The notes: generated by a model not told the origin, from the letters alone. A stretch of DNA of 34,737 bases from Puia sp. (GCA_036496825.1 DASXKM010000342.1:1-34737); one strand, 5' to 3'. Shown: positions 438-14,370, counted from the stretch's first letter. Numbers and translations: made by a program.

Positions 438-1562
438 ATGAAAGACGGTTCATCATTACCGAACAGTTACTCATTGGAAACGATCAAAGTGGCCATGATT
501 GTCAGATCCACTTTATATACTGTCCAGGGCGGCGATACCATACAGGCTTTACAAACCGCGCGTTCACTCCGGACGCAGGGTATCCGGGTGGATATCAAAT
601 TAACGAATGAAGAAATTGATTACGGCAGTTATCATTTATTGCATTTCTTCAATATCACAAGGCCGGCAGATATTCTTTATCATATCGGAAAAACAAGTCT
701 TCCTTTCGTTGTCTCTACCATTCTGATAAATTACAGCGAATACGATAAATATCACCGGAAAGGCATTTCGGGTATACTGTTCCGTTATTTGCCAGCGGAT
801 ACGATTGAATATCTGAAGGTCATTTCAAGATGGATTTTGGGCAGGGACAGGTTAATGAGTTTCTCTTATGCATGGAAGGGGCAGAAAAAATCCATACACG
901 AGATCATAAAAAAAGCTGGCATGCTTTTACCGAATTCGCGTTCCGAATATATCCGGCTTCAGGAAATTTATGGGTGCCAGACAAATCATATGGTAATTCC
1001 GAATGCGGTAGATGGTAATTTATTCAAGTTTAATAAGGAAGCTAAGAAAGATCCAAAGCTTGTCATTTGCATAGCCCGCGTTGAAGGAATTAAAAATCAA
1101 TTAAACCTGATCCGGGCACTGAATAATACAGGTTATCATTTGCTGATCATCGGAGCGCCTGCACCGAATCAACCCGGATATTACCAGAAGTGCCGCAATA
1201 TCGCGTCGCGCAACATAGAATTTATTGAGCATATCCCACAGCAGGAACTCGTGGCTTATTATCAAAAAGCAAAAGTACATGTACTGCCAAGCTGGTTTGA
1301 AACCACCGGATTAAGTTCGCTGGAAGCGGCGGCCATGGGATGTAATATTGTAATCACCGACAAAGGCGACACGAAGGAATATTTTGGAAATCATGCCGTC
1401 TATTGTTCGCCTTCCTCAACGGAAAGCATCTTTGCTGCCATTGAAAAAGCCAGTTCCCTGCCTCCGGATGAAATACTCCGGTCAAAGATTGCCTATTCTT
1501 ATACATGGCATCTCGCCGGCCGCCATACTGCGGAAGGATATAAACAAATAATAAATAACTAA
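438..1562 (+). CDS. Glycosyltransferase family 4 (GT-B fold)
   Basis: N-terminal GGDxIQ motif, ARVEGIKNQ, and the C-terminal E-x7-E motif ETTGLSSLEAAAMG. Confidence 0.9.
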   Translation: MKDGSSLPNSYSLETIKVAMIVRSTLYTVQGGDTIQALQTARSLRTQGIRVDIKLTNEEIDYGSYHLLHFFNITRPADILYHIGKTSLPFVVSTILINYSEYDKYHRKGISGILFRYLPADTIEYLKVISRWILGRDRLMSFSYAWKGQKKSIHEIIKKAGMLLPNSRSEYIRLQEIYGCQTNHMVIPNAVDGNLFKFNKEAKKDPKLVICIARVEGIKNQLNLIRALNNTGYHLLIIGAPAPNQPGYYQKCRNIASRNIEFIEHIPQQELVAYYQKAKVHVLPSWFETTGLSSLEAAAMGCNIVITDKGDTKEYFGNHAVYCSPSSTESIFAAIEKASSLPPDEILRSKIAYSYTWHLAGRHTAEGYKQIINN

Positions 1563-2701
1563 TGGGTTTAAAAATTGCTATACTGGGAACCAGAGGTGTG
1601 CCCAATAACTACGGTGGATTTGAACATGTAGCCGCGCATCTGTCAAGGGGACTTGTTCAGAAAGGACATGATGTAACGGTCTATAATTCCAGTAAACATC
1701 CTTATAAGGAAAATCAATGGCATGGAGTTGATATTGTGCATTGCTACGACCCGGAATACCTGATCGGTACTGCCGGACAGTTTATCTATGATCTGAATTG
1801 TATACTGGATGCCCGGAGAAGAGAATATAATATTATCCTGGTCCTTGGATATACCAGCAGCTCCGTATGGGGATTCCTGTATCCTAAAAATTCCATCATC
1901 ATCACCAATATGGACGGCCTGGAATGGAAACGCAGCAAATACCCGGGTCCTGTAAAAAACTTCCTGAGAAGAGCAGAGAAATGGGCCATAGCATCAAGCA
2001 GCTTTCATATTGCAGATTCTCAGGTAATCAAAGAATACCTGGACCAAAAATATCATGTTAAATGTAAACATATCGCCTATGGCGCAGGTATTTACCCGGT
2101 AGCTGATGTGAACCTCCTGAAGCAGTATAACCTGGAAAAAAATCAGTACTTTCTGTTAATCGCCAGAATGGAGCCTGAGAATAATATTGAAATGATATTG
2201 GATGGCTATACCATGACAAATACAAAAACCCGGTTTGTTGTCATTGGAAACATAACCAACCGCTATGGCAAATCCCTGAAGACAAAATATAAATCAGACT
2301 CCCGGATTATATTTCTGGGAGCTGTTTTTAATGAAATTAAAGTCCAGACATTAAGAGCCTTTTGCAAATTGTACTTTCACGGACATAGTGTCGGCGGCAC
2401 CAATCCCTCCCTGTTGGATGCCATGGCCGCGAGAGCACCTATCGCCATTCACAATAACGTTTTTAACGATGCCGTCGTAAAAGGAAATGCGCTCCGGTTT
2501 AATGACGCCAATGATGTCTTCAACATGATCAGTGAAAATCACCTGCCCGACGAAATTCAAATCGAGGACAATTACGTAATGATCGCAAGCGAGTTTACAT
2601 GGGAAAAAATTGTAAATCAATACGAGTACTATTTTCTTGCCTGTTACCTGAATAGGCAGCCTTATTATCTCTTAAAACATGCAACCCTGCCGGTAAATTG
2701 A
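1562..2701 (+). CDS. Glycosyltransferase family 4 with DUF1972 domain (WchF-like)
   Basis: KIAILGTRGVPNNYGGFE, NMDGLEWKRSK, ARMEPENN and HGHSVGGTNPSLLDAM motifs. Start overlaps the upstream stop (TAATG). Confidence 0.9.
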   Translation: MGLKIAILGTRGVPNNYGGFEHVAAHLSRGLVQKGHDVTVYNSSKHPYKENQWHGVDIVHCYDPEYLIGTAGQFIYDLNCILDARRREYNIILVLGYTSSSVWGFLYPKNSIIITNMDGLEWKRSKYPGPVKNFLRRAEKWAIASSSFHIADSQVIKEYLDQKYHVKCKHIAYGAGIYPVADVNLLKQYNLEKNQYFLLIARMEPENNIEMILDGYTMTNTKTRFVVIGNITNRYGKSLKTKYKSDSRIIFLGAVFNEIKVQTLRAFCKLYFHGHSVGGTNPSLLDAMAARAPIAIHNNVFNDAVVKGNALRFNDANDVFNMISENHLPDEIQIEDNYVMIASEFTWEKIVNQYEYYFLACYLNRQPYYLLKHATLPVN

Positions 2702-2706
2702 CGTAC
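2681..2706 (+). promoter_or_regulatory. Candidate ECF sigma promoter, copy 2 (GCAACC-N15-CGTAC)
   Basis: Straddles the stop of the DUF1972 GT, 42 nt upstream of the nucleotidyltransferase ATG. Confidence 0.6.
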
Positions 2707-2748
2707 TATCATGATGGATCTCTTCATGGCATGTTAAGTAATATGTAA

Positions 2749-3675
2749 ATGAAATATTTTAACATCAGAAAAGACATACTAGCCACCCTCGCCTATTTCA
2801 ACATGTTCGATTACCCCCTGAAGAAGAACGAGATTTTCCTTTTTCTGGGGCATTGTAACGATTACCAGGAGTTCGAGCAGGCTTTGACAAATCTCCTAAA
2901 AGACTCAGTGGTGTTTAAAATGGCCGAATTTTACAGCCTGCAAAACGATTTCAAGCTGGCCATCAGGCGGTTCAGAGGCAACGAAAAGGCGATATCCATG
3001 TTAAAAAATGCCGAAAGAGCGGCAACTATTATTGCTGCATTCCCATTTGTCAGGGCTGTTGCCGTTTCCGGTTCACTTTCAAAATACTTTGCAGACGAAC
3101 AGTCCGATATTGATTTCTTTATTATAACCAGGGCAAACCGGCTTTGGATTGCCAGGACCCTTCTGCATATCTTTAAAAAATTTACATTCATCGTACACAG
3201 GCAGCACCATTTCTGCATGAATTATTTTATTGATGAGGAGGAACCGGGGATCATGGAGAAAAATATTTATACAGCTATGGAGATCGCCACTGTTTTACCG
3301 CTACGGGATAACGGCATTTTCGATCAGTTCTTCAAAGCAAATAACTGGGCCAACGTTTTCTTTCCAAATAAATATTTGCATACTCCTCCTGTAAAGAGTA
3401 CAGGAAAGTCATGGATAAAATCCCTGACAGAGAAATCACTGAATAACAAATTCGGCAATTCACTGGATAATTTTTTAATGACCCGGACCGCAAAAAAATG
3501 GAATGCTAAAACGCTGTCAAATAAAAAAGACAACAAAGGCATGCTGATGAGTATGCATGTTGGAAAACATTTTTCAAAACCGAGCCCGGAAATTTTCCAG
3601 AAGACAATTCTCCAGTCTTACGACGACAGCCTCTCGGAAATATTTAAACGCTGCGAACTTTCTGTAGCGAAATGA
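2749..3675 (+). CDS. Nucleotidyltransferase-domain protein (pol-beta superfamily)
   Basis: hG[GS]-x9-13-DhD signature VSGSLSKYFADEQSDIDFFII, a later CMNYF strand, and an N-terminal helical extension (LAYFNMFDYPL). Confidence 0.8.
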   Translation: MKYFNIRKDILATLAYFNMFDYPLKKNEIFLFLGHCNDYQEFEQALTNLLKDSVVFKMAEFYSLQNDFKLAIRRFRGNEKAISMLKNAERAATIIAAFPFVRAVAVSGSLSKYFADEQSDIDFFIITRANRLWIARTLLHIFKKFTFIVHRQHHFCMNYFIDEEEPGIMEKNIYTAMEIATVLPLRDNGIFDQFFKANNWANVFFPNKYLHTPPVKSTGKSWIKSLTEKSLNNKFGNSLDNFLMTRTAKKWNAKTLSNKKDNKGMLMSMHVGKHFSKPSPEIFQKTILQSYDDSLSEIFKRCELSVAK

Positions 3676-4474
3676 TATAGTAATCTCCGATGTATTTCCA
3701 GGGCCATCTGCTCTTAAACCTGTTTTCCATTTTACACAACCAGATATATAACCGGGGAAATTTTTCAGGAAAATCTTCTACATAGGATGGCGGCACTATT
3801 GTGCATAGGCCTTCCAGCTCCTTAAATTCAAATTTTTTTTTCAAATTTCGTCTGATAAATCCCGGAGAATAGTACCAGCAGGTAAAAAAATCTTCTCCAA
3901 TTCTTGCTTCTCTTCCACCAGCACTGAAAAACCGCCTGGTTGCCGTTTTGAATTTTCCCTTCAGCATGAACATTGTCTCCCAGAGACAAAATCGCGGAAG
4001 AACAACCAGCACAACGGTTCCGCCGGGTTTCAGCAGCGAATCGAAACTGGCTAACACTTTTTTGAGATCACTGGTACAATTTAAACCCGCAAAATTTGAA
4101 AATATACAATCAAAGGGTCTTTTTTCGGAGAGGTTTTCCAATGAGGTAAAAGAACAAAGCTCCTGAGTCACAAGCGCATCCATGTTGTAGACTGCCACTT
4201 TCTCCCTTAATTTAGCCTGCATCCCGGTGGAAATATCTGTCGCATGAACATGATGGCCTTGTCTTGCCAGGAAGATGGCATCATCACCTGTTCCTGCATT
4301 CAATTCAAGGATGCGACTGCCCGGACTCAGATATTTCAAAAGAAACTGCCTGACCCTTTCCCGCTTATATCCCACGATTCCGTTGTTCCCATATAATTGA
4401 TCAAAACTGGCCGACTGACCCGTAAATGCGAGCGCAACCCGTTGTTCATTCATATGATTGACCGGTTCATTCAT
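3644..4474 (-). CDS. Class I SAM-dependent methyltransferase
   Basis: Motif I RILELNAGTGDDA, ATDIS, FDCIFSNF and LKPGG. ATGA-coupled to the upstream radical SAM gene. Confidence 0.9.
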   Translation of the reverse strand: MNEPVNHMNEQRVALAFTGQSASFDQLYGNNGIVGYKRERVRQFLLKYLSPGSRILELNAGTGDDAIFLARQGHHVHATDISTGMQAKLREKVAVYNMDALVTQELCSFTSLENLSEKRPFDCIFSNFAGLNCTSDLKKVLASFDSLLKPGGTVVLVVLPRFCLWETMFMLKGKFKTATRRFFSAGGREARIGEDFFTCWYYSPGFIRRNLKKKFEFKELEGLCTIVPPSYVEDFPEKFPRLYIWLCKMENRFKSRWPWKYIGDYYIISLQKVRSV

Positions 4475-5940
4475 CGGGTGGGCTTTTCCAACAGGTGAAG
4501 TTTTTTCCCGGCAATAAATGCTGCCGGTAAATAATAAATGGCAGACAAGGCCTTCTTTATCCGGGCTGCTTTTATTTTTAACGGGTGATTCAATAATTTT
4601 TTAATATTATCAAATGCGATATGCTTTCGATAACTCTTATGAACAAACCGGTGTAATTGTTTGTAAAAGGCAGGCTGGTATGTATTACTGAACAGGAGAG
4701 CCAACTCATCAGAATCTTTCCAGTTTGTTTTATTGACGAGTTCATTTTTTACCTTTTCAAAAAATACAGTGCCTGGTAACGGATATGAAACAGAGATTCC
4801 CAGTTCATAAGGTAGTAACTCATTGATCATCGCTATTGTCTTCCCGATATCTTCTTTCGTCTCACCGGGATAACCAAATTGTATAAAGAAAGAAGGCCTG
4901 ATTCCGCATTTCTTTAATAAACGGGTGGCCTCGTAGATCTGTTGAACGGTTGTTCCTTTATCCATGGCATCCAGAATTTTCTGGGAACCGCTCTCCGCGC
5001 CCATCCAGATATTTTCGCAACCAGCTCTTGCCAGATCCAGAATATTATTTTCCTGCAAAAGCAGATCAACCCTTCCCTGCATTTTAAATTTAAACTGCAA
5101 TCCTTCTTCCCGGATTAAATCGGCAAATTCATGCACCCATCCCGGCCTCAGACCAAAAATATCATCGCAGAACCAGACATGATCAAATGAATACCGCTTT
5201 CTCAACCATTTCAATTCGGCTACAACATTTTCGGGAGTCCGTGAATTATAACGGTTCCCGTAGATCGGTTTGGCGCACCAGTTACATTTAAATGGACAAC
5301 CACGGGTTGTACCCATATTCATTGAAAAATATCCTGCATGGGCCAGCCACATATCCCGGTAAGGATCCATGTCAATCATATCCCACGCGGGAAAGGGAAG
5401 CGCGTCCAGATCTTTTATAACGTTCCGGTGTTTTGTTTTTATGGTAGCTTCATTTTGCCTGAAGGCAAGACCCTCAATAGAAGAATAATCTGCTTTCCCG
5501 GATTTCAATGCATTGGATAATTCGAGAAGAGTTAATTCGGCTTCGCCGAGCATTATAAAATCTGCTCCGCTGTCCAGATACATTTCAAAACGGTCGGTAG
5601 AATCTGAGCTCGACACAATTACGATGCAACCACTTTTTTTTGCTGCCTGTATCATGACGAAGGCCGCATCGCGCATATTTTCCAGGCACATCTTGGTCAG
5701 ATAGTTGAAGCCGTCATCATATATAACGAAAATGTCGGGTGTTATCTTTTCAATCACGGGAATGATCTCGCCGGGATCTCTTGAAAACATCGTATCAAAG
5801 AATGAAACTTCATAACCATGTAGTTTCAAAAAAGAAGTTGCATATAAAGTGCCCAGGGGTGCATAGGGCCGCCCCGTGGACCATTGTTTCGGATCGAAAC
5901 GTAGAAAATAGGAATGTGTGATCAGTACTTTTTCCCGCAT
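4471..5940 (-). CDS. Cobalamin-binding-domain radical SAM protein
   Basis: N-terminal PLGTLY...DFIMLGEAE B12-type domain, TRGCPFKCNWC, FCDDIF and GAESGSQKILDAMDKG. Start moved from 5988 to ATG 5940 (MREKVLITHSY), 5 nt after the upstream stop. Confidence 0.9.
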   Translation of the reverse strand: MREKVLITHSYFLRFDPKQWSTGRPYAPLGTLYATSFLKLHGYEVSFFDTMFSRDPGEIIPVIEKITPDIFVIYDDGFNYLTKMCLENMRDAAFVMIQAAKKSGCIVIVSSSDSTDRFEMYLDSGADFIMLGEAELTLLELSNALKSGKADYSSIEGLAFRQNEATIKTKHRNVIKDLDALPFPAWDMIDMDPYRDMWLAHAGYFSMNMGTTRGCPFKCNWCAKPIYGNRYNSRTPENVVAELKWLRKRYSFDHVWFCDDIFGLRPGWVHEFADLIREEGLQFKFKMQGRVDLLLQENNILDLARAGCENIWMGAESGSQKILDAMDKGTTVQQIYEATRLLKKCGIRPSFFIQFGYPGETKEDIGKTIAMINELLPYELGISVSYPLPGTVFFEKVKNELVNKTNWKDSDELALLFSNTYQPAFYKQLHRFVHKSYRKHIAFDNIKKLLNHPLKIKAARIKKALSAIYYLPAAFIAGKKLHLLEKPTR

Positions 5941-5945
5941 AGCTT

Positions 5946-6992
5946 TTAAATTTTTACTGCCGGCCTTAAATTCAGTGAACAGACGCATTTCAGGCAGGTC
6001 TCATTATTATCCATATCCAGTTTTTTTCTGAATTCAACGGCTGACTCGCTGTTGATTATCGAATCCAGCGACCCATCCTTTATATTGCCATATGCTTTAT
6101 GAAAGAAGCAGGGCCTGACGGTTCCATCCGCTTCTATCACTGTGGATACCCAGGGCGCATTGCATTTTTTATACGGAAAAGGATTGAGTCCAAAGTAAGC
6201 GGCGTAGTAATAGTAAATCCTTTGAAATTTCTGTGGTGACTCAAGAATATAATGATTTTTAAATTCATCCTCAAATTCCTCCAGCATTCCCCCGATGATT
6301 ATTTTCATTTCTTCCAGTTCAGATTCGGTTAGAACGATTTCCTGCTGCCGGTCACCAGTCCAGACTGACTCTCTGTTGAAAGCTGTACTGCTGACATCAG
6401 CAGGTAAAAAACTGATGGAATCAAGTGCTATGTCTTTCGCTGCCGGAATGATCGCCGGCCAATTTCGAAAATTGAGACGATGGATTACAGATCTCCCGGA
6501 AATTCGAAAATAAGGATCAACAGCCCTTACGGATTCAATTCCTTCTTTTAGTTTCTTAAAAGCGCCAGGTATATTCCGGATCGCATCGTGCACTACCTCA
6601 TCTCCATCCAGCGACACAATGATATCATCCACCCATTTTACCAATTGTTCGCAATGCTTTTTAACAGTCAGACCGGTAGAAAGCAGGGTAATTTTTATAT
6701 TCTGATCTTTCAATATTTCACAGAACCTGAAGAACCGGGGATTCAATAAAGCTTCGCCGCCCGACATGACTACCTGACGGGTCTGATATTTCCTGAAAGT
6801 TTTTAATAAGCCGCTGATGTCCGTTTCGTTCAGCTGTCTGAGATGATGATTACCCTTCCAGATATCGCACATAACGCAACGACAGTTGCAGGAACTATGT
6901 GGCATCAGGATTACGATCGGCAGGCTCGTGATTTTATCGGTCTGCAGAGTAAGAAACCGGTTATAAGTCTGATATAGTGATTGGATGGCCAT
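5946..6992 (-). CDS. Radical SAM protein with twitch (short SPASM) domain
   Basis: CNCRCVMC, SGGEAL and VSLDG motifs. C-terminal C-x12-G-x4-C (CNAPW...GTVRPC) followed by CLKCVC. Confidence 0.9.
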   Translation of the reverse strand: MAIQSLYQTYNRFLTLQTDKITSLPIVILMPHSSCNCRCVMCDIWKGNHHLRQLNETDISGLLKTFRKYQTRQVVMSGGEALLNPRFFRFCEILKDQNIKITLLSTGLTVKKHCEQLVKWVDDIIVSLDGDEVVHDAIRNIPGAFKKLKEGIESVRAVDPYFRISGRSVIHRLNFRNWPAIIPAAKDIALDSISFLPADVSSTAFNRESVWTGDRQQEIVLTESELEEMKIIIGGMLEEFEDEFKNHYILESPQKFQRIYYYYAAYFGLNPFPYKKCNAPWVSTVIEADGTVRPCFFHKAYGNIKDGSLDSIINSESAVEFRKKLDMDNNETCLKCVCSLNLRPAVKI

Positions 6993-6993
6993 A

Positions 6994-8493
6994 TTAAAAT
7001 CCCTGTATTTCAGGTTGGCGGTATTTCCACAAGCGATGCAATAATTTTATTTCGTATGGATATTTGTGCACGTTGATATTATACCTGACTCCCGCCAGCA
7101 GATGCATTGCCTTCCTTTTAAACCGGTTCAGGCGAATGTCCGTTACAGTAGGATAATATCCATTCAATACCGTCTCAAAGTTTTTGATTTTATCAATCAT
7201 GGCTGGCGTGAGCCATGGAGTCAGGGGATTTTTCCGAAGGTCAAAATTTTCCCAGGCGGGGCTGATCCAGTCCTCCAGTTTGTCAGGAAATTTAAATCCT
7301 TTCGAAAGCGCTTCATTATAAAGGTCAGAGCCTTCTGTTGCCACGGGACTATAGGTGTAAAGAATAATCTCGGTATTTGGGTTGATACGTTTTATCTTTT
7401 TGATGAAATTGATTTCAAAATCTATCTGCGCTTCCACCTGGGCAGGTGTTGGAGCCGGCATGCCCAGAACAAATGAGTATTCCGGGATGATATCAAATTT
7501 TTTCATGCGTGCGGCAAATTCCTCGATCTGATCTCCATTTTGGGTGCCGCCTTTGTCCATCTGTTTGAGTATGGCGTTATTACCGCTTTCTGCGCCAAAA
7601 AAAATAATCCGGCACCCTGCTTCACGAATGAGTGCAAGGGATTCGTCCTTGAATTTGTGCATCGTATCAATACGTGCCATGCCCCACCAGCTCATTTTTT
7701 CGGGAAGTATTAGTTTGGCAAATTCTACCGTACGTCTTTCCGAAACGAAAAAATTATTATCATGAAATTCAATGGCGTCGGCACCCCATTTATCTTTTAT
7801 ATATTTTATATCCCGATAAATTTTTTTGGCAGATTTCGCCTTCCAGCGGGCTTCATATGTTGGAACGACGGCACAAAACGAACAGGTAAAAGGACAGCCG
7901 ATACTCGAATGATAAGCAAGTGTTTTATTGCCGAGATAGGTTTTTCCAAGGTATTTATCCATTGGATAAAACTCAGTGAGCTTATCATATGGCAAATCCG
8001 GAAGTTCGTCCTGCTCAATCAGATCCTGCTTTCTGGTCTTTACTATCTGGTCGCCGGATTTATAGATCAGGTTTTGTATGAGCTCATAGGGCTCATTTTT
8101 TTCGAGTGCACTGATCAGCAGTGGAAAACAATGATCACCGGGTCCATTAACTACAAAGTCAACATAACCCGAGTTCAGAACCGCCTTATATTGATTTGTT
8201 GGAAAATATCCGCCCCAGATTATTTTTATCTCCGGGAAATAATCCCTGATTGTCTGAGAAAAGGGTATTGCCTGTTTCAGCTGGGGACCAGGCATAACAG
8301 TAAATCCAACATATTTGTAATTGCCTGTTTCGAGCCATTGCATAATTCTCGCCATGGGATCGGCTTCCCGGTTTCCGTCAACGATTACCCAGGGATATTT
8401 GCCCTCTACAGAGGCAGCGATGTTCAGGATGGAATTGGGTACGCGGTATTTCGCATGGGCACTTCGCGGGTTAAATAATAATATACCATTCAT
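6994..8493 (-). CDS. Cobalamin-binding-domain radical SAM protein
   Basis: ILLFNP start, WGGYFPT, SIGCPFTCSFC, FHDNNFF and GAESG. Start moved from 8613 to ATG 8493 (MNGILLFNPRS) because the 40-aa extension covers the divergent promoters. Confidence 0.9.
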   Translation of the reverse strand: MNGILLFNPRSAHAKYRVPNSILNIAASVEGKYPWVIVDGNREADPMARIMQWLETGNYKYVGFTVMPGPQLKQAIPFSQTIRDYFPEIKIIWGGYFPTNQYKAVLNSGYVDFVVNGPGDHCFPLLISALEKNEPYELIQNLIYKSGDQIVKTRKQDLIEQDELPDLPYDKLTEFYPMDKYLGKTYLGNKTLAYHSSIGCPFTCSFCAVVPTYEARWKAKSAKKIYRDIKYIKDKWGADAIEFHDNNFFVSERRTVEFAKLILPEKMSWWGMARIDTMHKFKDESLALIREAGCRIIFFGAESGNNAILKQMDKGGTQNGDQIEEFAARMKKFDIIPEYSFVLGMPAPTPAQVEAQIDFEINFIKKIKRINPNTEIILYTYSPVATEGSDLYNEALSKGFKFPDKLEDWISPAWENFDLRKNPLTPWLTPAMIDKIKNFETVLNGYYPTVTDIRLNRFKRKAMHLLAGVRYNINVHKYPYEIKLLHRLWKYRQPEIQGF

Positions 8494-8529
8494 AGAATTT
8501 CCCGGGGCCTCGTGCCCCCCTCCACATGT

Positions 8530-8559
8530 GGATACGTCCGGTGCTTTTAACTGGTTGCA
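8530..8559 (-). promoter_or_regulatory. Candidate ECF sigma promoter, copy 3 (TGCAACC-N16-CGTATCC)
   Basis: Minus strand reads tgcaacc agttaaaagcaccgga cgtatcc, 36 nt upstream of the radical SAM operon start. Confidence 0.65.
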
Positions 8560-8584
8560 AAAAATGATATTAAATGGCGGAAAT

Positions 8585-8611
8585 ACAACCTGTTCCGCAG
8601 AAAACCCGTAC
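8585..8611 (+). promoter_or_regulatory. Candidate ECF sigma promoter, copy 4 (ACAACC-N16-CGTAC)
   Basis: Back-to-back with copy 3, upstream of the methyltransferase-amidohydrolase-GT unit. Confidence 0.6.
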
Positions 8612-8623
8612 ATGTAGTAAGGA

Positions 8624-9397
8624 ATGGCAGATATCCAAACGACCGTTAACTATATGATCACAAAATTCAAAGACTTTCTTTACAAAACCGGCCTTTCAAA
8701 ATCTGAACTGGATCCTGAGAAAGCATACGAAATCTGGTCAGCGAATTATGATAAACAGCCTGGCAATCTGATGCTTGACCTGGATGAAAAGATTTTTACA
8801 GACCTGATAGAACAGGTCGATCTCAAAGACAAAGAAGTAGCAGATATTGGTTGCGGCACCGGCAGGCATTGGGAAAAAATATATGCAAAAAATCCTTCGG
8901 CCGTCATTGGTTTTGATATTTCCGGGGCGATGCTCGAACGCCTGAAAAGCAAATTTCCATTTGCCAATACACAAAAGACAACGGACAATCTATTGGCATC
9001 AGTTCCGGATGCCTCCATAGATTTTATTGTTTCAACGCTGACCATTGCTCATATAAAAAACATCAGAGAAGCCATTGCATCCTGGTCCAGAGTTCTGAAA
9101 ATGAATGGCGAAATACTGGTTACTGATTTCCATCCTTCCCTGCTTGCAAGAGGCGGCAAAAGAAGTTTCAGTCATGGCGGCAGGAGTCTGTCCGTAAGAA
9201 ATTATACTCATTCGATCGAGAAAATAAAGCAATTTTTTTATGATGCCGGACTCTCGCTGATCCGGGAGGAAGAAAGGACCGTGGATGAAAATGTAAGATC
9301 ATATTATGAAGCAAAGAATGCGCTGCCCGTTTACGAGCGCTTTAAAGGGCTTCCTGTTATTTACGGATTATACTTAAGGAAACAACGTGCTGCTTAA
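8624..9397 (+). CDS. Class I SAM-dependent methyltransferase
   Basis: AYEIWSANYD, motif I VADIGCGTGRH, GFDIS and ILVTDFHP. Alternative start at ATG 8654. Confidence 0.88.
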   Translation: MADIQTTVNYMITKFKDFLYKTGLSKSELDPEKAYEIWSANYDKQPGNLMLDLDEKIFTDLIEQVDLKDKEVADIGCGTGRHWEKIYAKNPSAVIGFDISGAMLERLKSKFPFANTQKTTDNLLASVPDASIDFIVSTLTIAHIKNIREAIASWSRVLKMNGEILVTDFHPSLLARGGKRSFSHGGRSLSVRNYTHSIEKIKQFFYDAGLSLIREEERTVDENVRSYYEAKNALPVYERFKGLPVIYGLYLRKQRAA

Positions 9398-10574
9398 TCA
9401 TCTATCCATTATTAATTCAGATCAGCCGGTAAATATTGCCATTTACGGAGAAAAAATGATGGCAATCGGACCCGGGCATGTAAATAATTCCTCTGATCCA
9501 TTGCAGCTTCGGTTTACAAATGCCATCGCCATTCCCGGTCTGATCAATTCGCACGATCATCTTGATTTTAATTGCTTTTCTGTATTAGGCAATAGAAAGT
9601 ACGATCATTATACCGACTGGGGAAAACATATCCACGAGTCCCATAAGGAAAATATCAGGGCGGTACTGAGAATACCTAAAAAACTTCGCGCGGCCTGGGG
9701 AATGTACAAGAATCTGCTGGCTGGTGTCACAACGGTAGTCAATCATGGCAGCCGGCTTGAAATCGAGAATCCCCTAATCGATATATACCAGGAATCACAA
9801 AATTTGCATTCCGTGGCATTCGAAAAAAACTGGAAGTGGAAACTGAATAACCCTGTTCATCTGCGGAGAGATTTCGTCATACATACAGGCGAAGGCACCG
9901 ACAAGCGATCCGCTGACGAAATTGATCTATTGCTGAAGTTCAATCTTCTGAGAAGAACTTTAATAGGTATTCATGGCGTATCCATGAAGCCTGAACAGGC
10001 CAAACGATTCAAGGCCATGATCTGGTGTCCTGAATCTAACCGGATACTACTGGATCAAAATGCCCGCATTCATGAATTGAAAAACAGCACGACGGTGGTT
10101 TTTGGAACCGACTCTACATTGACTGGCGGCTGGAATATCTGGAAACATCTGAGACTCGCACGCACACTGCATCAGGTAACCGATGAGGAATTGCTGGATA
10201 TGATTACCAGCGCACCAGCGAGGTTATGGAATCTCAACAAGGGTAAACTGGAACCAAAAAAAGATGCTGATATCGTTGTGCTGAAAATGAAAAACAAATA
10301 TGCCGGAGCGAGTGAATTATTCAATGCAAATCCCGAAGACATATTACTGATTATTCACAAAGGGCAAATCCGATTATTTGATAAATCGCTGCTCCCGCAA
10401 CTCAGGCTCCTGCCGATGAATCTTTTCCGATATAACCAGATAAACTTTAAAGAGAATACAAAATTCGTTGAGGGAGATCTGCCCGGTCTGATTGGTGAAA
10501 TCAAAAAGTATAATCCGAATATCCATTTCCCTGTTGAAGTTTTCGAAACGATTAATGAATCTCACTATGATTAA
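9387..10574 (+). CDS. Metal-dependent amidohydrolase family protein (deaminase-like)
   Basis: PGLINSHDH (HxH), HTGEG (HxxE), IHG, WCPESN, GTDS and ADIVV motifs. GTG start overlaps the upstream stop. Confidence 0.85.
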   Translation: MLLNHLSIINSDQPVNIAIYGEKMMAIGPGHVNNSSDPLQLRFTNAIAIPGLINSHDHLDFNCFSVLGNRKYDHYTDWGKHIHESHKENIRAVLRIPKKLRAAWGMYKNLLAGVTTVVNHGSRLEIENPLIDIYQESQNLHSVAFEKNWKWKLNNPVHLRRDFVIHTGEGTDKRSADEIDLLLKFNLLRRTLIGIHGVSMKPEQAKRFKAMIWCPESNRILLDQNARIHELKNSTTVVFGTDSTLTGGWNIWKHLRLARTLHQVTDEELLDMITSAPARLWNLNKGKLEPKKDADIVVLKMKNKYAGASELFNANPEDILLIIHKGQIRLFDKSLLPQLRLLPMNLFRYNQINFKENTKFVEGDLPGLIGEIKKYNPNIHFPVEVFETINESHYD

Positions 10575-11670
10575 AGTCGTGGACATCGTTTACCATCATC
10601 ATAGTGAATTCAATAAACCTCTGCAGGTGCTGGAAAAACATGCTCCTTCATTGGGTTTTGCCGACTTTATACAGAAATCAATTCAGATTATTTTTGTAAA
10701 ACACCTGGACTACAATGGCATCGAATATATCAACGGTAAAGCCTATGCTTTTTTCAGAGGCCGGAACAAGTTCTGGCATATCCCTTTTAAAACGCATCGG
10801 TACGTCAAGAGTCAAAATCCCGATATCGTATTGGTAGAAGGCCTGATCTTCCCATTGCAGTTAATATCATTAAAATGGATGCTGGGCAAAAACTGCAGAA
10901 TCATTGTTCAGCATCATGGGGAAAAACCCTTTGATGGAATGAAGGGGTTGCTGCAAAAAATAGCCGACAGGAATATAAGTGCTTACCTTTTTACCTCTTA
11001 TAAAAACGCATCCGCCTGGATCAACAAAAAAATTATAAGAAATCCATATAAGTGCAAGGAAGTGCTGGAAGCGTCTACAAACTTTATCAGACGGGATAAA
11101 GTGAAAAGTCAGGCCCGGGTTGGCATGTCCGGCGTCCACAATTTTTTATGGGTCGGAAGACTGAATAAAAATAAGGATCCTCTAACCGTACTGAAAGCAT
11201 TTAAAAAATATGGTCTCTATCATCCGAATGCCAGGTTATATATGATATATCAGGACGAAGAGTTACTGGAGGAAGTAAAGAATAAGGTTCTTCAAAGTGT
11301 TGTACTGGAAGATGCAGTAAAGCTGATTGGGAAAGTGGATCACCGTGAACTGACCTACTGGTTCAGCGCTGCCAATTTTTACATCTCAGGCAGTCTTTCC
11401 GAAGGAAGCGGTTACGCATTACTGGAAGCGATGGCATGTGGTTGCATACCGGTAGTTACCGCAATTCCTTCTTTCGAAAAAATTACAGAAAAGGGGAAAT
11501 ATGGATTTTTATTCCCGCCGGAAGATGTCGAAGCTTTGGCTCAATTGCTTGAAAATCTACATACGATGCCGATCGAAAGAGAGAGGCTGAGGATTGAAAA
11601 ATATTTCCGTGAAAATCTCAGTTTTAAAAGCATTGCGGAAAGTCTGGGTGACGTGATCAATCAATTGTAG
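10567..11670 (+). CDS. Glycosyltransferase family 4
   Basis: WVGRLNKNKD and EGSGYALLEAMACG. Start moved to ATG 10567, an ATGATTAA overlap with the amidohydrolase stop. Confidence 0.9.
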   Translation: MIKVVDIVYHHHSEFNKPLQVLEKHAPSLGFADFIQKSIQIIFVKHLDYNGIEYINGKAYAFFRGRNKFWHIPFKTHRYVKSQNPDIVLVEGLIFPLQLISLKWMLGKNCRIIVQHHGEKPFDGMKGLLQKIADRNISAYLFTSYKNASAWINKKIIRNPYKCKEVLEASTNFIRRDKVKSQARVGMSGVHNFLWVGRLNKNKDPLTVLKAFKKYGLYHPNARLYMIYQDEELLEEVKNKVLQSVVLEDAVKLIGKVDHRELTYWFSAANFYISGSLSEGSGYALLEAMACGCIPVVTAIPSFEKITEKGKYGFLFPPEDVEALAQLLENLHTMPIERERLRIEKYFRENLSFKSIAESLGDVINQL

Positions 11671-12716
11671 AGGGATAATATTTTATTGCAGGTTTCTCCG
11701 ATCGGCCAGGTCAGCACGGAATCATGTTTCATGTTTTTATTGTTCAATAACTCCAGCAGCTTTTCTTTCATTTCCTCCTTCGTTTTAACAATATGGTGAT
11801 GATCGAAATTGATATGCATCGGTTTACAATAACTCAGAACCTGCGTCCCCGCATATAATGCTTCTAAAAAAACGATACCAAATCCTTCATAGGAAGAGGG
11901 ATGAACAAGTATTCTGGATTCTCTCATGATATCCAATATACTGTCATGGTCCAGTTCACCGCGCAATTCAATCTGACTGGTTAAATGAAAATGTTGAATG
12001 AGTTGTTGCAGTTTCCCGCGTTCCGGTCCATCTCCACAAATCACCGCCCTGATATCCGGATGTGTGTCAGCGAGCGCTGCAACCAGCAAAATAATCTGAT
12101 CAAACTGTTTCAGCGGTATCAGGGAACCCACACCGAGAATATCAATTTTTCTCTCTATCTTTTTTTCTGGAAAAGATACAATGTCAATTCCCGGTGGAAT
12201 GGTATGGGCTGGTTTTATCTTATAATTTCTGAAAAACTCATCTGCGAGAAAATCCGACAGGGCAATCAGTGATTCCTGTCTGGAGCGGACGATTGAAACA
12301 TACCGGTTATTCTTTCTGGCATCCTGACCCATTAACCAGGTAAATGACCGTACACCGTATTTCTTCGCCGCAAATTTTGCCAGTAGCGACGCCTCCCCCA
12401 TCCAGAAGCTAAGAATGCCTGTCACTTTTTCTTCGCGGAATATTTTTTTCAGGCGCCGCCATATCGTTGTCCACAAAAATAAACGCCGTATTCCACCCTT
12501 GTTTCTGCCGTTGAATGCGTGTACTTCGCATGCATGCCATTCATAAACTGCCTCAAAATATGGATATTGAAATGTCAACACTTTTATGTTCAGATCCGGA
12601 TTTGATAATTTGAGATGTTTGACAAAAGCCTGGGGAAAAGGAAGACAGGCACTATCCTGTTCATTGGCAGGAAAACCCGGAATCAGGATAATCAGTGTTT
12701 TATTTTTCCAGGTCAT
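11661..12716 (-). CDS. Glycosyltransferase family 4
   Basis: GVGSLIPLKQ, GDGPER and EGFGIVFLEALYAG. Confidence 0.9.
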   Translation of the reverse strand: MTWKNKTLIILIPGFPANEQDSACLPFPQAFVKHLKLSNPDLNIKVLTFQYPYFEAVYEWHACEVHAFNGRNKGGIRRLFLWTTIWRRLKKIFREEKVTGILSFWMGEASLLAKFAAKKYGVRSFTWLMGQDARKNNRYVSIVRSRQESLIALSDFLADEFFRNYKIKPAHTIPPGIDIVSFPEKKIERKIDILGVGSLIPLKQFDQIILLVAALADTHPDIRAVICGDGPERGKLQQLIQHFHLTSQIELRGELDHDSILDIMRESRILVHPSSYEGFGIVFLEALYAGTQVLSYCKPMHINFDHHHIVKTKEEMKEKLLELLNNKNMKHDSVLTWPIGETCNKILSLYN

Positions 12717-14370
12717 CCAATTGGATTTTCTTGTTACAGAAAGAAAATGCGTCGGTGTTATGCGTAATTAAAAGGATGATCTTCCCGTTGTTTGCCAGTA
12801 TCCGGAGTTGTTTCAGCATTTCTGTTTCGGCAGCCCTGTCCAACTCACTGAACGGTTCGTCCAGAATAAGCAGGTCATAATCTCTGTATAAGGCGCGCGC
12901 CAAAATAAAACGTTGCCTTTGCCCGCCGCTTAAATTTTTCCCATTCTCAGTTATCACGGTATCCACCCCATGAGAAAATGACCGGACCATTTGAGCCATA
13001 CCTGTCAACTCTAAAACATCTTCCATTCTTTTTTTATTATAATTACCTTCCTCCAATGTGATATTTTCAGCTAAAGATGCGTGTAGAAAAAAATGTTGTT
13101 GTTTGATATAAGATATTCTCTTCCATAATTTCTTTCTGGTATCCAAATCCGATAGATGACCATTAAAATATATATTTCCTTTGTCCGTAGTTAAAAATCC
13201 CAATAATAAATTTACCAGTGTTGTTTTACCCCGGCCGGATATGCCGGATATGCCCATCATGTCGCCTTTCTCCAGTTTCATCGAAAAAGATTTCAGGAGG
13301 CTTTTTCCATTGAAATCGAAATCAACATTTTCAAAATCGATGGAAGAAATATGATCCGTAATATCATTTGTTTCCGTCGGATGCCCATCGCTTTTGGTTA
13401 ACCCGGCCGCCGCATATGCATAGGTCCTTACCTGTCCGGTTAAATTGGTAATTTTTACAATACCGGGAATAATTTTATAGGCGGCCGCCATCAGTGCGCC
13501 CAGGGTGATTATGGGGATCGTAGAATGATGAGAGGCAAGAAAATTCAAAACGATGAGAAGAAATAAACCAAATACAGCAAATACCTCAATAAAACGGGTG
13601 GGCATATTTTGTATGATCAGCCGCTCAGACAAATATCGATTGAGTCGTTTCTGGAAACGATGATACCGGTTCGTAAAGAATTCATTTTTTGAATTCAGGT
13701 TACTCTCTACATAGCCCGTCAATGCTTCCTGCAGATGTTGCATGGATTTTTCACTCATGCTCTTTCCCATCTGGCGGCCTTCATGAAGTCTTCTTTTTAT
13801 GAATATTGAAATCATGGCGACGGGTGGAACCAGTATCAACAGCAGCAATGGCAACAACAATGGGTTAAAAATTGCGATCGCGGTGACGCTTATCAGGATC
13901 AGGATTGCCTGACTAAAAATCTGTTGCAATCCGTTCAATACATAATGGCAGAACTCAACAGGCTGCTGGCTGATATACCTGTTCATAACAGAAGAATCAA
14001 CATGAATGTAATCCGTATAAGGGCCATTCAGGTATTGCAATAAATTGTCCCTTGAAATCCGGGAAGCCACTCCATATACATAATTATATTGCGCTTTTGA
14101 AATGAGAAAAGCCAGGATATTCTTTGCGGTAAACAAAAGAAAAAATAAGCTGATCAGCAAGACCGGGTGTTCATTAAAAAGAGCGGGTGAAAAAAATTTG
14201 TCGGATGCCTGACCCTGTGGTTGCGTGTAAAAATTGATCACAAATAATAATGCAATTAAAAACAAAATATCCAGCACACTGATAAACACATCCGCGATTG
14301 TAAGTTGCCAAAGTTTGTCAACCTCCCTTCGGTTGAGTATCCTGAATATGTCTTTCACAATCTGCTTCAA
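12700..14370 (-). CDS. Fused ABC exporter (TMD + NBD; PglK/HetA/MsbA-like)
   Basis: N-terminal hydrophobic helices, Walker A GISGRGKTT, signature LSGGQRQR and Walker B LLILDE. Start is uncertain (TTG 14370 or GTG 14358); the track start at 14451 lies upstream of the candidate promoter. Confidence 0.88.
   Translation of the reverse strand: MKQIVKDIFRILNRREVDKLWQLTIADVFISVLDILFLIALLFVINFYTQPQGQASDKFFSPALFNEHPVLLISLFFLLFTAKNILAFLISKAQYNYVYGVASRISRDNLLQYLNGPYTDYIHVDSSVMNRYISQQPVEFCHYVLNGLQQIFSQAILILISVTAIAIFNPLLLPLLLLILVPPVAMISIFIKRRLHEGRQMGKSMSEKSMQHLQEALTGYVESNLNSKNEFFTNRYHRFQKRLNRYLSERLIIQNMPTRFIEVFAVFGLFLLIVLNFLASHHSTIPIITLGALMAAAYKIIPGIVKITNLTGQVRTYAYAAAGLTKSDGHPTETNDITDHISSIDFENVDFDFNGKSLLKSFSMKLEKGDMMGISGISGRGKTTLVNLLLGFLTTDKGNIYFNGHLSDLDTRKKLWKRISYIKQQHFFLHASLAENITLEEGNYNKKRMEDVLELTGMAQMVRSFSHGVDTVITENGKNLSGGQRQRFILARALYRDYDLLILDEPFSELDRAAETEMLKQLRILANNGKIILLITHNTDAFSFCNKKIQLDDLEK

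What the first reader, a model, noticed from the sequence alone, without database searches (positions are those of the whole stretch)
438..14370. Uncharacterised 12-gene radical SAM / glycosyltransferase cluster: candidate pathway for an exported, radical-modified glycan or glycoconjugate
Seen: 4 GT4 enzymes, a nucleotidyltransferase, 2 class I methyltransferases, 2 B12-domain radical SAM enzymes, a twitch radical SAM, an amidohydrolase and a fused ABC exporter, tightly packed with overlapping start/stop codons. Also seen: no wzx/wzy/wzz, NDP-sugar synthesis, NRPS/PKS or convincing precursor peptide in the cluster. Known: B12 radical SAM enzymes methylate unactivated carbons on sugars (GenK, GenD1), twitch enzymes oxidise or epimerise cyclitols/sugars (BtrN, NeoN), and PglK-type ABC proteins flip lipid-linked oligosaccharides. 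Inference: the cluster builds an oligosaccharide, glycolipid or nucleoside-sugar with unusual C-methylation or rearrangement and exports it. I do not recognise it as a characterised pathway.
Basis: partly seen in the sequence, partly recalled or inferred. Interest (0 to 1): 0.85.

Follow-up and report, generated by a model that had tools for sequence, protein, structure and literature searches.

The report
Radical-enzyme cassette for surface sugars
Twelve real, conserved genes in a Chitinophagaceae bacterium encode three radical-SAM enzymes plus helper enzymes that likely build an undescribed, unusual sugar and likely attach it to a cell-surface sugar chain, and one of the supposed vitamin-B12 enzymes lacks the glycine pair that normally makes room for B12.

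Summary
All 12 genes are real, but they form four alternating-strand blocks, not one operon. Order and strands recur in 13 of 46 long homologous loci holding at least 11 of the 12 genes. The fixed core is three genes: nucleotidyltransferase-fold NT, radical SAM enzyme RS1 and methyltransferase MT1. RS1 occurs in 46 of 400 Bacteroidota genomes, always with NT, and is fused to NT, MT1, a GT4 or the amidohydrolase elsewhere, including Tistrella. Relatives place the cassette beside priming transferase, Wzy_C, Wzx, GT2, GT9 and GT-C genes. The ends of a separate Wzx/Wzy locus lie on other contigs of this genome. So the product is likely a cell-surface glycan decoration, not a secreted metabolite. 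RS1 lacks the cobalamin Gly-Gly motif in 197 of 197 sequences and folds closest to non-methylating OxsB and AprD4, whereas RS2 keeps methylase-type motifs. No curated family cut-off names any enzyme and six literature searches found no description. This scan has reported the same cassette before on other DNA (at least eight earlier notes). Product unknown; chemistry inferred.

The parts
438..1562 (+). GT4a, family 4 glycosyltransferase; an ortholog is fused to NT in P0326; a 54% paralog lies in the second (Wzx/Wzy) locus of a sister genome
1562..2701 (+). GT4b, DUF1972 GT4; best NCBIfam model Cps2T (191 bits vs cut-off 500); 52% paralog next to the priming transferase in the second locus
2749..3675 (+). 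NT: winged helix + Pol-beta-type nucleotidyltransferase fold; G108, D120, D122, W133, C156, N158 invariant in 165 of 165 sequences; core gene
3644..4474 (-). MT1, class I SAM methyltransferase, core partner of RS1 (fused to it in 6 representatives); N132 146/146, C133 143/146
4471..5937 (-). RS1, radical SAM enzyme with a remodelled cobalamin-type domain (no Gly-Gly; D112, D115 invariant; DxFNYLxKMC insertion); core gene (ORF open from 5988)
5932..5933 (.). Junction at which sister genomes carry a 490-aa GT-C (PMT_2) membrane glycosyltransferase gene; about 1.48 kb cleanly absent here
5946..6992 (-). TW, radical SAM enzyme with twitch domain (C35/C39/C42; C277, C295, C333, C336); best PDB profile match BlsE
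6994..8493 (-). RS2, B12-binding radical SAM enzyme with G-x-T-x-M, WGG, GPG and DNNF motifs; predicted cobalamin-dependent methylase (ORF open from 8613)
8624..9397 (+). MT2, class I methyltransferase; travels with AH (31 both, 1 and 2 alone, of 105 loci)
9387..10574 (+). AH, deaminase-type amidohydrolase (H56/H58, H166-x-x-E169, H196, D242 invariant)
10567..11670 (+). GT4c; never in the same locus as a GT9 (0 both, 17 GT9 only, 35 GT4c only, of 105 loci) (ORF open from 10492)
11661..12716 (-). GT4d; travels with the ABC exporter (32 both, 7 and 3 alone, of 105 loci)
12700..14370 (-). Fused type IV ABC exporter (MsbA/PglK/HepA-like, below every cut-off) (ORF open from 14451)

Best explanation
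The twelve genes are a conserved tailoring cassette that likely makes an unusual sugar unit and likely adds it to a lipid-linked cell-surface glycan, whose priming, flipping and polymerising genes likely sit at a second locus of this genome. Shown: gene content, conservation, fusions, neighbourhoods, motifs. Inferred steps: (1) NT tags or activates a small sugar(-phosphate) with a nucleotide. (2) RS1 carries out a non-methylating radical step on the sugar ring (dehydration, rearrangement or ring contraction, as AprD4 and OxsB do), possibly without cobalamin. (3) MT1 methylates the product. (4) The optional module RS2 + TW + MT2 adds a cobalamin-dependent C-methylation and an oxidation or epimerisation. 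(5) AH deaminates an adenosine species, most simply the 5'-deoxyadenosine/SAH by-products; other lineages put a nucleosidase-like gene in the cassette instead. (6) The GT4s (GT9 or GT-C in relatives) transfer the unit and the ABC protein flips the lipid-linked product. Confidence 0.65 is for the surface-glycan role; the exact step order is about 0.25.
For: Core coupling: 46 genomes with RS1 and NT, 0 with RS1 alone, 4 with NT alone, 350 with neither, of 400. Of the four, one has a fragmented RS1, one keeps NT and an MT1-like gene without RS1, and two have divergent GT4-NT fusions. In the 46 loci NT is within about 10 kb in 45, MT1 in 43 and a glycosyltransferase in 32. Fusions among 39 long representatives: NT-RS in 8 (one weak), RS-MT1 in 6, GT4-RS1 in 1, AH-RS1 in 1; GT4-RS1 again in 5 metagenome loci; GT4a-NT and NT-epimerase/SDR fusions. 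The NT-RS1 fusion is held by cultured Tistrella mobilis. Neighbours in the first 100 loci: Wzy_C in 24 + 5 loci, priming Bac_transf in 21, Wzx in 12 + 4, GT2 in 17, GT-C (PMT_2) in 16, GT9 in 10. The distant metagenome loci also carry Wzy_C, Wzx, GT2 and GT4. Second locus: sister genome G018 has priming transferase, GT4b paralog, GT2, Wzy_C, Wzx, FdtA, DegT, GT4a paralog, ABC and GT2; its two ends match contigs C659 (98.6% over 70 aa) and C109 (88%, 81%) of this genome. RS1 model (pLDDT 87): OxsB Z 32.2, rmsd 4.8, 439 aligned; AprD4 Z 31.1, rmsd 3.1, 427 aligned; above MgmA 28.8, CysS 28.3, TsrM 26.3 and TokK 20.9. RS1 N78 (196/197) aligns with OxsB N186; Gly-Gly is present in 0 of 197 RS1, 83 of 85 RS2 and 36 of 36 RS3. 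NT fold matches kanamycin nucleotidyltransferase ANT(4') (Z 8.4, rmsd 3.2, 112 aligned). MetH passes the cut-off in 4 of 4 relatives and a fragment is present here, so cobalamin is used.
Against: No substrate, product or expression datum exists. 14 of the 46 phylum-wide loci show no glycosyltransferase within about 10 kb by my custom profiles, and Wzy-like, Wzx and priming genes were detected next to the core in only 4, 1 and 2 of 46; that adjacency is mainly seen in Chitinophagaceae and in the distant metagenome loci. The in-cluster Wzy_C and 537-aa membrane protein of other relatives have no close match in the five nearest genomes. The second locus has its own GT4a/GT4b paralogs and NDP-sugar genes, so it could be an independent O-antigen locus. 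No NDP-sugar synthesis gene is in the window. Identities to all solved radical SAM enzymes are 15-21%, so motif-based predictions are weak; OxsB itself has only one Gly at that strand. The NT structural match is middling and its winged helix could mean a regulatory or protein-modifying role. Genomes are kin and the locus sets overlap in part, so counts are not independent events.
Confidence: 0.65

Rival explanations
1. SAM-derived sugar route: RS1 joins the 5'-deoxyadenosyl radical to an acceptor, the deaminase or nucleosidase strips or converts the base, NT activates the freed pentose derivative and the GTs put it on the envelope. This would work like HpnH/HpnG in hopanoids, or the methylthioxylose cap of mycobacterial lipoarabinomannan. 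It is a sub-case of the glycan model in which AH and the phosphorylase-fold protein are pathway enzymes.
For: A PNP_UDP_1 gene follows RS1-MT1 in 11 of 80 distant metagenome loci and lies in 2 of 46 Bacteroidota loci, never with AH (0 both, 32 AH only, 5 PNP only, of 105 long loci). It occurs in minimal loci with RS1 as the only radical SAM enzyme. It lacks the Arg of the 'RVG' phosphate-binding strand seen in its best PDB match, in 9 of 9 rows the pattern matched, of 10, which fits a hydrolytic nucleosidase (role of that Arg recalled). AH's best NCBIfam model is aminofutalosine deaminase (54 bits vs 320). NT is fused to an epimerase/SDR domain in 3 clusters. HpnH then HpnG: PMC13459092 passages.
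Against: 68 of 105 long loci have neither AH nor PNP, so neither is required in cis. AH tracks MT2 and RS2, not RS1. By-product clean-up explains the same pattern. With only 5 PNP loci, exclusivity could be lineage history. RS1 has no sequence tie to HpnH or MqnE (MqnE Z 14.6, barrel only).
Confidence: 0.12
2. Both B12-domain enzymes are ordinary class B C-methyltransferases (GenK/GenD1-like) that C-methylate sugars of a glycan.
For: Most characterised members of this architecture are methylases (PMC13459092 passage; GenK and GenD1 in PMC5461906). MgmA is the top Foldseek and profile hit of RS1. RS2 keeps methylase-type motifs. RS1 keeps the Gly-Glu motif in 193 of 197 sequences.
Against: RS1 has Gly-Gly in 0 of 197 sequences and His, Phe or Trp at the first Gly position in 31 of 197. 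It has the OxsB-type Asn, Lys at Cys-loop+2 (197/197; OxsB Arg323) and an acidic GGE motif, and the best full-length structural fits are OxsB and AprD4. AprD4 has such a domain and does not bind cobalamin (PMC12931638 passage).
Confidence: 0.15
3. The cluster makes a secreted glycoside or nucleoside metabolite (aminoglycoside-, oxetanocin- or fosfomycin-like) that the ABC protein exports.
For: The nearest characterised enzymes (AprD4, OxsB, BlsE, BtrN, ANT(4')) come from such pathways. The window lacks wzx/wzy. Nucleotide tagging before a radical step recalls Fom1/Fom3 (recalled; suggested by earlier notes).
Against: One conserved chromosomal copy in 46 of 400 Bacteroidota across many families; no close match on 72,556 plasmids (best below 32% identity; none for the Tistrella fusion). 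The ABC gene is present in only 8 of 46 loci. Partners are GT9, GT-C, Wzy_C, Wzx and priming transferases.
Confidence: 0.1
4. The core modifies a peptide or protein (RiPP or post-translational modification); NT would be a protein nucleotidylase or regulator and the glycosyltransferases incidental.
For: The NT fold also resembles MNT antitoxins and GlnE, and carries a winged helix. MgmA, a protein methylase, is a top RS1 hit. The bare NT-RS1-MT1 trio occurs without a detected GT in some genomes.
Against: No conserved small ORF among 596 intergenic ORFs of 20-89 aa from 223 loci; the largest groups were MT1 fragments or shared by near-identical loci. No peptidase or RiPP transporter recurs. NT and RS1 are fused to GT4 and SDR domains.
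Confidence: 0.06

Closest known systems
AprD4 (apramycin radical SAM 1,2-diol dehydratase, PDB 6fd2) with reductase AprD3
   Same: Same size and architecture as RS1 over the full length (Z 31.1, rmsd 3.1, 427 aligned); best sequence hit of RS1 and RS2; acts on a sugar; has a B12-type domain without binding cobalamin (PMC12931638 passage).
   Different: 18% identity; NCBIfam AprD4 score 78 vs cut-off 500; no aminoglycoside genes; RS1 is tied to NT and MT1, and only some loci have an SDR.
OxsB/OxsA (oxetanocin ring contraction, PDB 5ul3)
   Same: Top VIA match (Z 32.2); RS1 and the paralog RS3 share the Asn at the lower-axial position, a basic residue at Cys-loop+2 and an acidic GGE motif (motifs from PMC9204698).
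   Different: 16% identity; OxsB has extra domains and binds cobalamin; no HD phosphohydrolase seen (a membrane metallophosphoesterase occurs in some loci); glycan context.
HpnJ (bacteriohopanetetrol cyclitol ether) and calditol synthase Cds
   Same: Radical SAM enzymes proposed to contract a sugar ring on an envelope lipid (PMC13459092 passages); HpnJ is among the top NCBIfam hits of RS1 and RS2.
   Different: HpnJ scores 129.6 and 109.2 vs cut-off 577.6; no hopanoid gene in the annotated neighbours; the acceptor here is likely a lipid-linked glycan.
GenK/GenD1, TokK, TsrM, MgmA (class B methylases)
   Same: RS2 has G-x-T-x-M, WGG, GPG (as TsrM) and DNNF (TokK DANF).
   Different: RS1 lacks the Gly-Gly motif; no model reaches its cut-off; substrates unknown.
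Fom1 cytidylyltransferase/Fom3/FomD (fosfomycin; recalled, raised by earlier notes)
   Same: Logic of nucleotide tagging coupled to a B12-type radical step.
   Different: No Fom1 match in the NT fold searches; no phosphonate gene among annotated neighbours; PhpK model 115 and 111 vs 600.
Wzx/Wzy- and ABC-flippase-dependent surface glycan loci (PglK/MsbA-type exporters, Cps2T-like GT4)
   Same: GT4s, ABC exporter and, in relatives or in trans, priming transferase, Wzy_C, Wzx, GT2, GT9, GT-C.
   Different: I found no described locus of this kind with two to four radical SAM enzymes and this NT family; the ABC is below all named cut-offs.

Membership tests
Class B (cobalamin-dependent) radical SAM enzymes - RS1 | CxxxCxxC cluster motif and partial TIM barrel | tested here: met
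   197 of 197 sequences; model and fold searches
Class B (cobalamin-dependent) radical SAM enzymes - RS1 | N-terminal Rossmann domain of cobalamin-binding type | tested here: met
   Full-length alignment to OxsB, TsrM, MgmA; Pfam B12-binding not hit in the window protein, 16-38% of members in Atlas clusters
Class B (cobalamin-dependent) radical SAM enzymes - RS1 | Gly-Gly (one or more Gly) pocket on beta-4 for the DMB tail, and downstream G-x-S-x-X motif (PMC9204698) | tested here: not met
   GG in 0 of 197; first position S/C/A/H/F/W/N/T, never G; second position G in 92 of 197; beta-3 reads IYDD plus an insertion, though the Asn is kept
Class B (cobalamin-dependent) radical SAM enzymes - RS1 | Binds cobalamin; methylates | not testable with these tools
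   No cobalamin ligand in the complex tool; no biochemistry
Class B (cobalamin-dependent) radical SAM enzymes - RS2 | CxxxCxxC, B12-binding domain, G-x-S/T-x-X and Gly-Gly motifs | tested here: met
   Pfam 34.2 bits vs 32.1; WGG 83 of 85; G/A-x-T/S-x-M with M in 84 of 85
Named B12 radical SAM equivalogs (BchE, HpnJ, PhpK, AprD4, MgmA and others) | Score above the curated NCBIfam cut-off | tested here: not met
   Best scores 137 (RS1, BchE, cut-off 481) and 111 (RS2, PhpK, cut-off 600)
SPASM/twitch radical SAM enzymes - TW | Radical SAM core plus C-terminal auxiliary-cluster cysteines | tested here: met
   PF13186 47.7 bits vs 21.5; C277, C295, C333, C336 in 61 of 61
Pol-beta nucleotidyltransferase superfamily - NT | hG[GS] and DxD motifs on the minimal NTase fold | tested here: met
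   G108, D120, D122 in 165 of 165; fold matches ANT(4'), MNT, HalB; PF01909 in 25-41% of members of the top Atlas clusters
Pol-beta nucleotidyltransferase superfamily - NT | Third catalytic carboxylate (recalled) and NMP transfer | tested here: inconclusive
   The third strand carries invariant C156 and N158; D162 is not invariant; E178 is in 164 of 165; activity untested
Deaminase-type amidohydrolases (TM0936/MqnX/guanine deaminase group) - AH | HxH, HxxE, H and D metal/catalytic motif | tested here: met
   H56, H58, H166, E169, H196, D242 in 34 of 34; weak profile hits to TM0936; below all named cut-offs
PglK-type lipid-linked oligosaccharide flippase - ABC | NCBIfam PglK cut-off | tested here: not met
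   142.5 bits vs 1000, though over residues 32-578; MsbA 194 and LssB 196 score higher; PglK is not among the 60 PDB rows shown of 130
PglK-type lipid-linked oligosaccharide flippase - ABC | External helix between TM1 and TM2 (recalled) | not tested
Wzx/Wzy-dependent glycan locus | Priming transferase, flippase and polymerase/ligase genes | tested here: inconclusive
   Absent from the window; adjacent in many relatives; second locus in G018 with both ends present in G000 and the middle unassembled; functional link untested
RiPP biosynthetic cluster | Conserved precursor peptide gene | tested here: not met
   No conserved candidate among 596 small ATG-started intergenic ORFs of 223 loci; a distant or very short precursor is not excluded
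Phosphonate/phosphinate pathway | PEP mutase and related genes | tested here: inconclusive
   None among neighbours annotated; whole genomes were not searched for pepM

The most novel reading that the evidence does not exclude
RS1 founds a multi-phylum family of cobalamin-free radical SAM enzymes. Its B12-type domain has been rebuilt (two invariant aspartates in place of the Gly-Gly pocket, a near-invariant cysteine at the cobalt face) to hold a nucleotide-tagged sugar made by the partner NT. Together with MT1 it builds a new carbon skeleton (ring-contracted, deoxy-branched or SAM-derived sugar) for cell-surface glycans of Bacteroidota, Tistrella and other lineages: radical skeleton chemistry inside surface-glycan biosynthesis.
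Probability: 0.25. Interest if true: 0.88.

Novelty: new variant of a known kind. Interest (0 to 1): 0.64.

Why it matters
About one in nine high-quality Bacteroidota genomes sampled (46 of 400) carries this three-gene core, and a fused form sits in a cultured alphaproteobacterium, yet none of its enzymes has a name or a product. Radical SAM chemistry on sugars is known from antibiotics and from two envelope-lipid head groups (HpnJ, Cds); I found no description of it in surface-polysaccharide loci. If the reading holds, it predicts an unknown sugar or cap on the envelope of many environmental bacteria, possibly relevant to phage receptors and envelope stability (inference). It also offers a natural set of B12-type paralogs with and without the cobalamin motifs (RS1, RS2, RS3) for the open question of what decides methylation versus rearrangement. 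Cultured carriers make this directly testable.

Tried and rejected
Complex prediction of RS1 with NT, paired 109-row alignments: no answer, score 0.00 in both runs; no evidence either way. RNA runs for window 3644-11670: none was listed. Cobalamin riboswitch RF00174 in this genome: not found, but the genome is 66% complete. Plasmid collection: only distant radical SAM hits for RS1, none for the Tistrella fusion. Rfam scan of the window: nothing. Promoter and terminator scan: counts at chance level (45 vs 36.5 +/- 6.6; 10 vs 13.8 +/- 3.5). PDB sequence search with AH alone: no hit. Foldseek of NT: no match at E <= 0.001; VIA rows were dominated by the winged helix. JGI's label 'BchE cyclase' for RS1 homologs was rejected (137 vs 481 bits). 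An arsenic reading, prompted by conserved cysteines in RS1, NT and MT1, was considered and dropped: ArsM/ArsL models score only at family-background level and no ars gene was among annotated neighbours. The papers read did not give the methylthioxylose pathway genes beyond MtxS, so that analogy rests on recall. No tree against characterised enzymes was built, as their sequences were not held as records. The in-cluster Wzy_C and 537-aa membrane protein were sought in five nearest genomes: only a 24-25% match and no match. An alignment of ABC orthologs failed on a coordinate slip and was not repeated.

Full report
Observation. The window is one whole contig of a 66%-complete genome. The nearest named loci are Puia sp. 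(RS1 92-95% identical) and other Chitinophagaceae. Seven of 11 junctions overlap, but the genes form four blocks, GT4a-GT4b-NT (+), RS2-TW-RS1-MT1 (-), MT2-AH-GT4c (+) and ABC-GT4d (-), with two tail-to-tail overlaps and one divergent gap.

Conservation. Whole RS1 orthologs (60-87% identity) occur in 15 of 24 same-genus genomes, plus one frameshifted copy. Of 80 GTDB loci, 46 are 19 kb or longer; 13 of these hold at least 11 of the 12 genes, all in the window's order and strand pattern, and the other 33 hold 2 to 10. In an even draw of 400 high-quality Bacteroidota genomes, RS1 is in 46 and NT in 50. The 46 are a subset of the 50; the four extras are a decayed RS1 locus, a locus with NT and an MT1-like gene but no RS1, and two divergent GT4-NT fusions. 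Within about 10 kb of RS1 in the 46 genomes lie NT (45), MT1 (43), RS2 (23), the paralog RS3 (12), GT-C/GT87 (12), GT9 (11), GT4d (9), ABC (8), TW, AH and MT2 (6 each), and any glycosyltransferase (32) (custom profiles that can miss distant families). So the fixed core is NT-RS1-MT1 and the rest is modular. Over 105 loci of 15 kb or more, TW never occurs without RS2 (42 both, 0 TW alone), AH goes with MT2, GT4d with ABC, and GT9 never occurs with GT4c. Kin are not independent and the locus sets overlap in part.

Beyond Bacteroidota and fusions. A profile search of 1.84 billion representatives gave 39 long proteins among the best 150. Eight join NT to the radical SAM domain (one weakly), six join it to MT1, one to a GT4 and one to AH. 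The NT-RS1 fusion P0125 is from Tistrella mobilis; other relatives are named Myxococcota, Gemmatimonadota and FCB group (20 proteins looked up, most unnamed). In 80 metagenome loci of distant RS1 orthologs (G+C 0.39-0.73 in those printed, taxa not given), NT is present in 56 and adjacent in 52; many loci are short. Their neighbours include Wzy_C, Wzx, GT2, GT4, GT-C-like membrane proteins and, in 11 loci, a nucleoside phosphorylase-fold gene. Longer NT proteins are fused to a GT4a ortholog or to an epimerase/SDR domain, the latter in Aureispira anguillae.

Where the assembly genes are. In the first 100 loci the recurring extra genes are Wzy_C (24 + 5 loci), priming Bac_transf (21), GT2 (17), GT-C PMT_2 (16), Wzx (12 + 4) and GT9 (10). 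The closest genomes lack these beside the cassette, except a GT-C gene between TW and RS1 that is cleanly absent here. Sister genome G018 has a second locus with priming transferase, GT4b paralog, GT2, Wzy_C, an unannotated 303-aa gene that I take for Wzz-like, Wzx, FdtA, DegT, an unannotated 407-aa membrane protein, GT4a paralog, ABC and GT2. Families of that locus flank NT-RS1-MT1 directly in L201 and L203. In this genome, contig C659 ends inside the priming transferase and C109 begins at the ABC-GT2 end, with the middle unassembled. Against it, the second locus has its own paralogs and may work alone, and across the phylum Wzy-like, Wzx and priming genes were detected near the core in only 4, 1 and 2 of 46 loci.

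RS1 is not a plain B12 methylase. Its model (pLDDT 87) matches class B-type structures at 15-21% identity: Foldseek ranks MgmA, AprD4, TsrM and OxsB first, and VIA gives OxsB Z 32.2, AprD4 31.1 with the lowest rmsd among the top five, MgmA 28.8, CysS 28.3, TsrM 26.3 and TokK 20.9. PMC9204698 (passages and the Outlook section read) defines the cobalamin motifs. RS1 keeps Gly-Glu (193 of 197) but has Gly-Gly in 0 of 197 distinct sequences; the strand reads [SCAHFW]-[SG]-[SA]-D-x-x-D with both aspartates invariant, and beta-3 carries an insertion DxFNYLxKMC with C84 in 195 of 197. N78 aligns with OxsB N186, Cys-loop+2 is Lys in 197 of 197 and the GGE position is acidic, as in OxsB. PMC12931638 (passages) states that enzymes not doing radical methylation have a hydrophilic lower face, and that AprD4 and ArsL have such domains without binding cobalamin. 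RS3 keeps Gly-Gly (36 of 36) with the same Asn (33 of 36). RS2 has G-x-T-x-M, WGG (83 of 85), GPG as in TsrM and DNNF like TokK's DANF. These are predictions from motifs at low identity, and OxsB itself has a single Gly there.

Helpers. NT (pLDDT 94) is a winged helix plus a minimal Pol-beta NTase domain closest to ANT(4'), MNT antitoxins and HalB (weak matches), with invariant G108, D120, D122, C156 and N158. AH has the full deaminase motif and weak ties to SAH/MTA and aminofutalosine deaminases. AH and the phosphorylase-fold gene never share a locus (0 both, 32, 5), but 68 of 105 loci have neither. The phosphorylase-fold protein lacks the Arg seen in its best PDB match, a point raised by note e1-4144806. 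TW is a twitch enzyme nearest BlsE by profile. The ABC is a generic type IV exporter. MetH and other B12-binding proteins show cobalamin use in this clade. No conserved precursor peptide was found.

Mechanism. Most likely the cassette makes a nucleotide-linked, radically remodelled and methylated sugar unit and transfers it to a lipid-linked envelope glycan (0.65 for the role, about 0.25 for the step order). Rivals are a SAM-derived sugar route (0.12), two ordinary C-methylases (0.15), a secreted metabolite (0.10) and a peptide or protein target (0.06); the first two are variants within the glycan role. Every chemical step is inferred.

What is known. Six full-text searches for the system returned no paper describing it; I saw only listings and abstract starts for those. 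The library lacks most subscription journals, and no supplements were read, so a mention in a network table could be missed. Background: PMC13459092 (passages on HpnJ, HpnG, Cds), PMC5461906 (passages on GenK, GenD1, AprD4/AprD3), PMC3229680 and PMC12088412 (passages on the methylthioxylose cap). Fom1/Fom3, the MTX gene set, the PglK external helix, the NTase third carboxylate and the phosphorylase Arg role are recalled. Earlier notes of this scan describe the same cassette on other DNA; they are unchecked AI notes and are not counted as evidence. Gene labels (RS1, NT, U15 and so on) are mine.

Verdict. A real, widespread, undescribed radical SAM tailoring cassette, probably for a cell-surface glycan: a new variant of a known kind of system, with a fair chance of new enzyme chemistry in RS1. 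Interest 0.64.

Noticed in passing
window 4471-5937, 2749-3675, 3644-4474: Each of the three core proteins has a near-invariant cysteine at or near its predicted active site (RS1 C84 195/197, NT C156 165/165, MT1 C133 143/146); unexplained, may point to thiol or covalent chemistry.
   Followed up: partly
L207:2775-4052, L208, L210, L213, L218, L222, L258, L177/L179: A ~420-aa calcineurin-like metallophosphoesterase recurs inside cassettes that mostly carry GT9 and/or GT87; it could remove the nucleotide or phosphate tag.
   Followed up: no
L215:11625-12101 and L212:14135-14791: A cytidine/dCMP-deaminase-family gene lies directly after MT1 or the ABC gene in two loci without AH; possibly a third way to deaminate a nucleoside, possibly chance.
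   Followed up: no
P0150, P0169, P0184, P0237, P0240: Proteins of 1,800-2,300 aa made of four or five tandem radical SAM domains, most of B12 type, some with a SPASM domain; others (P0224, P0249, P0263) fuse two such domains to GT2/GT4, methyltransferase, DUF362 and TPR domains.
   Followed up: no
L021:7756-9420 region, L083, L089, L082, L102: Flavin-reductase-like genes (two families, about 310-320 aa; one with a Pfam hit, one without) sit in many Chitinophagaceae cassettes; possible electron supply for the radical enzymes.
   Followed up: no
L063/L066/L067, L219, L223: Arylsulfotransferase, sulfotransferase and cytochrome c genes lie within some cassettes, hinting at sulfation of the product in those lineages.
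   Followed up: no
L066: The record is titled uncultured Bifidobacteriaceae, but its locus has the same layout and similar identities as Bacteroidia locus L063; probably a mislabelled genome.
   Followed up: no
G000:C637:4924-5688: A methyltransferase of the family (MT3) that lies between RS2 and TW in many relatives stands alone elsewhere in this genome, 48% identical.
   Followed up: partly
L254 (G057:C12): A decaying copy of the core: NT with a stop, RS1 and MT1 in fragments.
   Followed up: partly
window 3-275, 14445-34737: Flanks are ordinary and not part of the cassette: a cut-off DUF4440-family gene upstream; downstream DUF885, PaaI-like thioesterase, GNAT, phytoene-desaturase-like oxidoreductase, tricorn protease, cysteine desulfurase-like protein, MocR regulator, tryptophanase, MFS transporter, acyltransferase, AraC regulator, arginine deiminase-like protein.
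   Followed up: no
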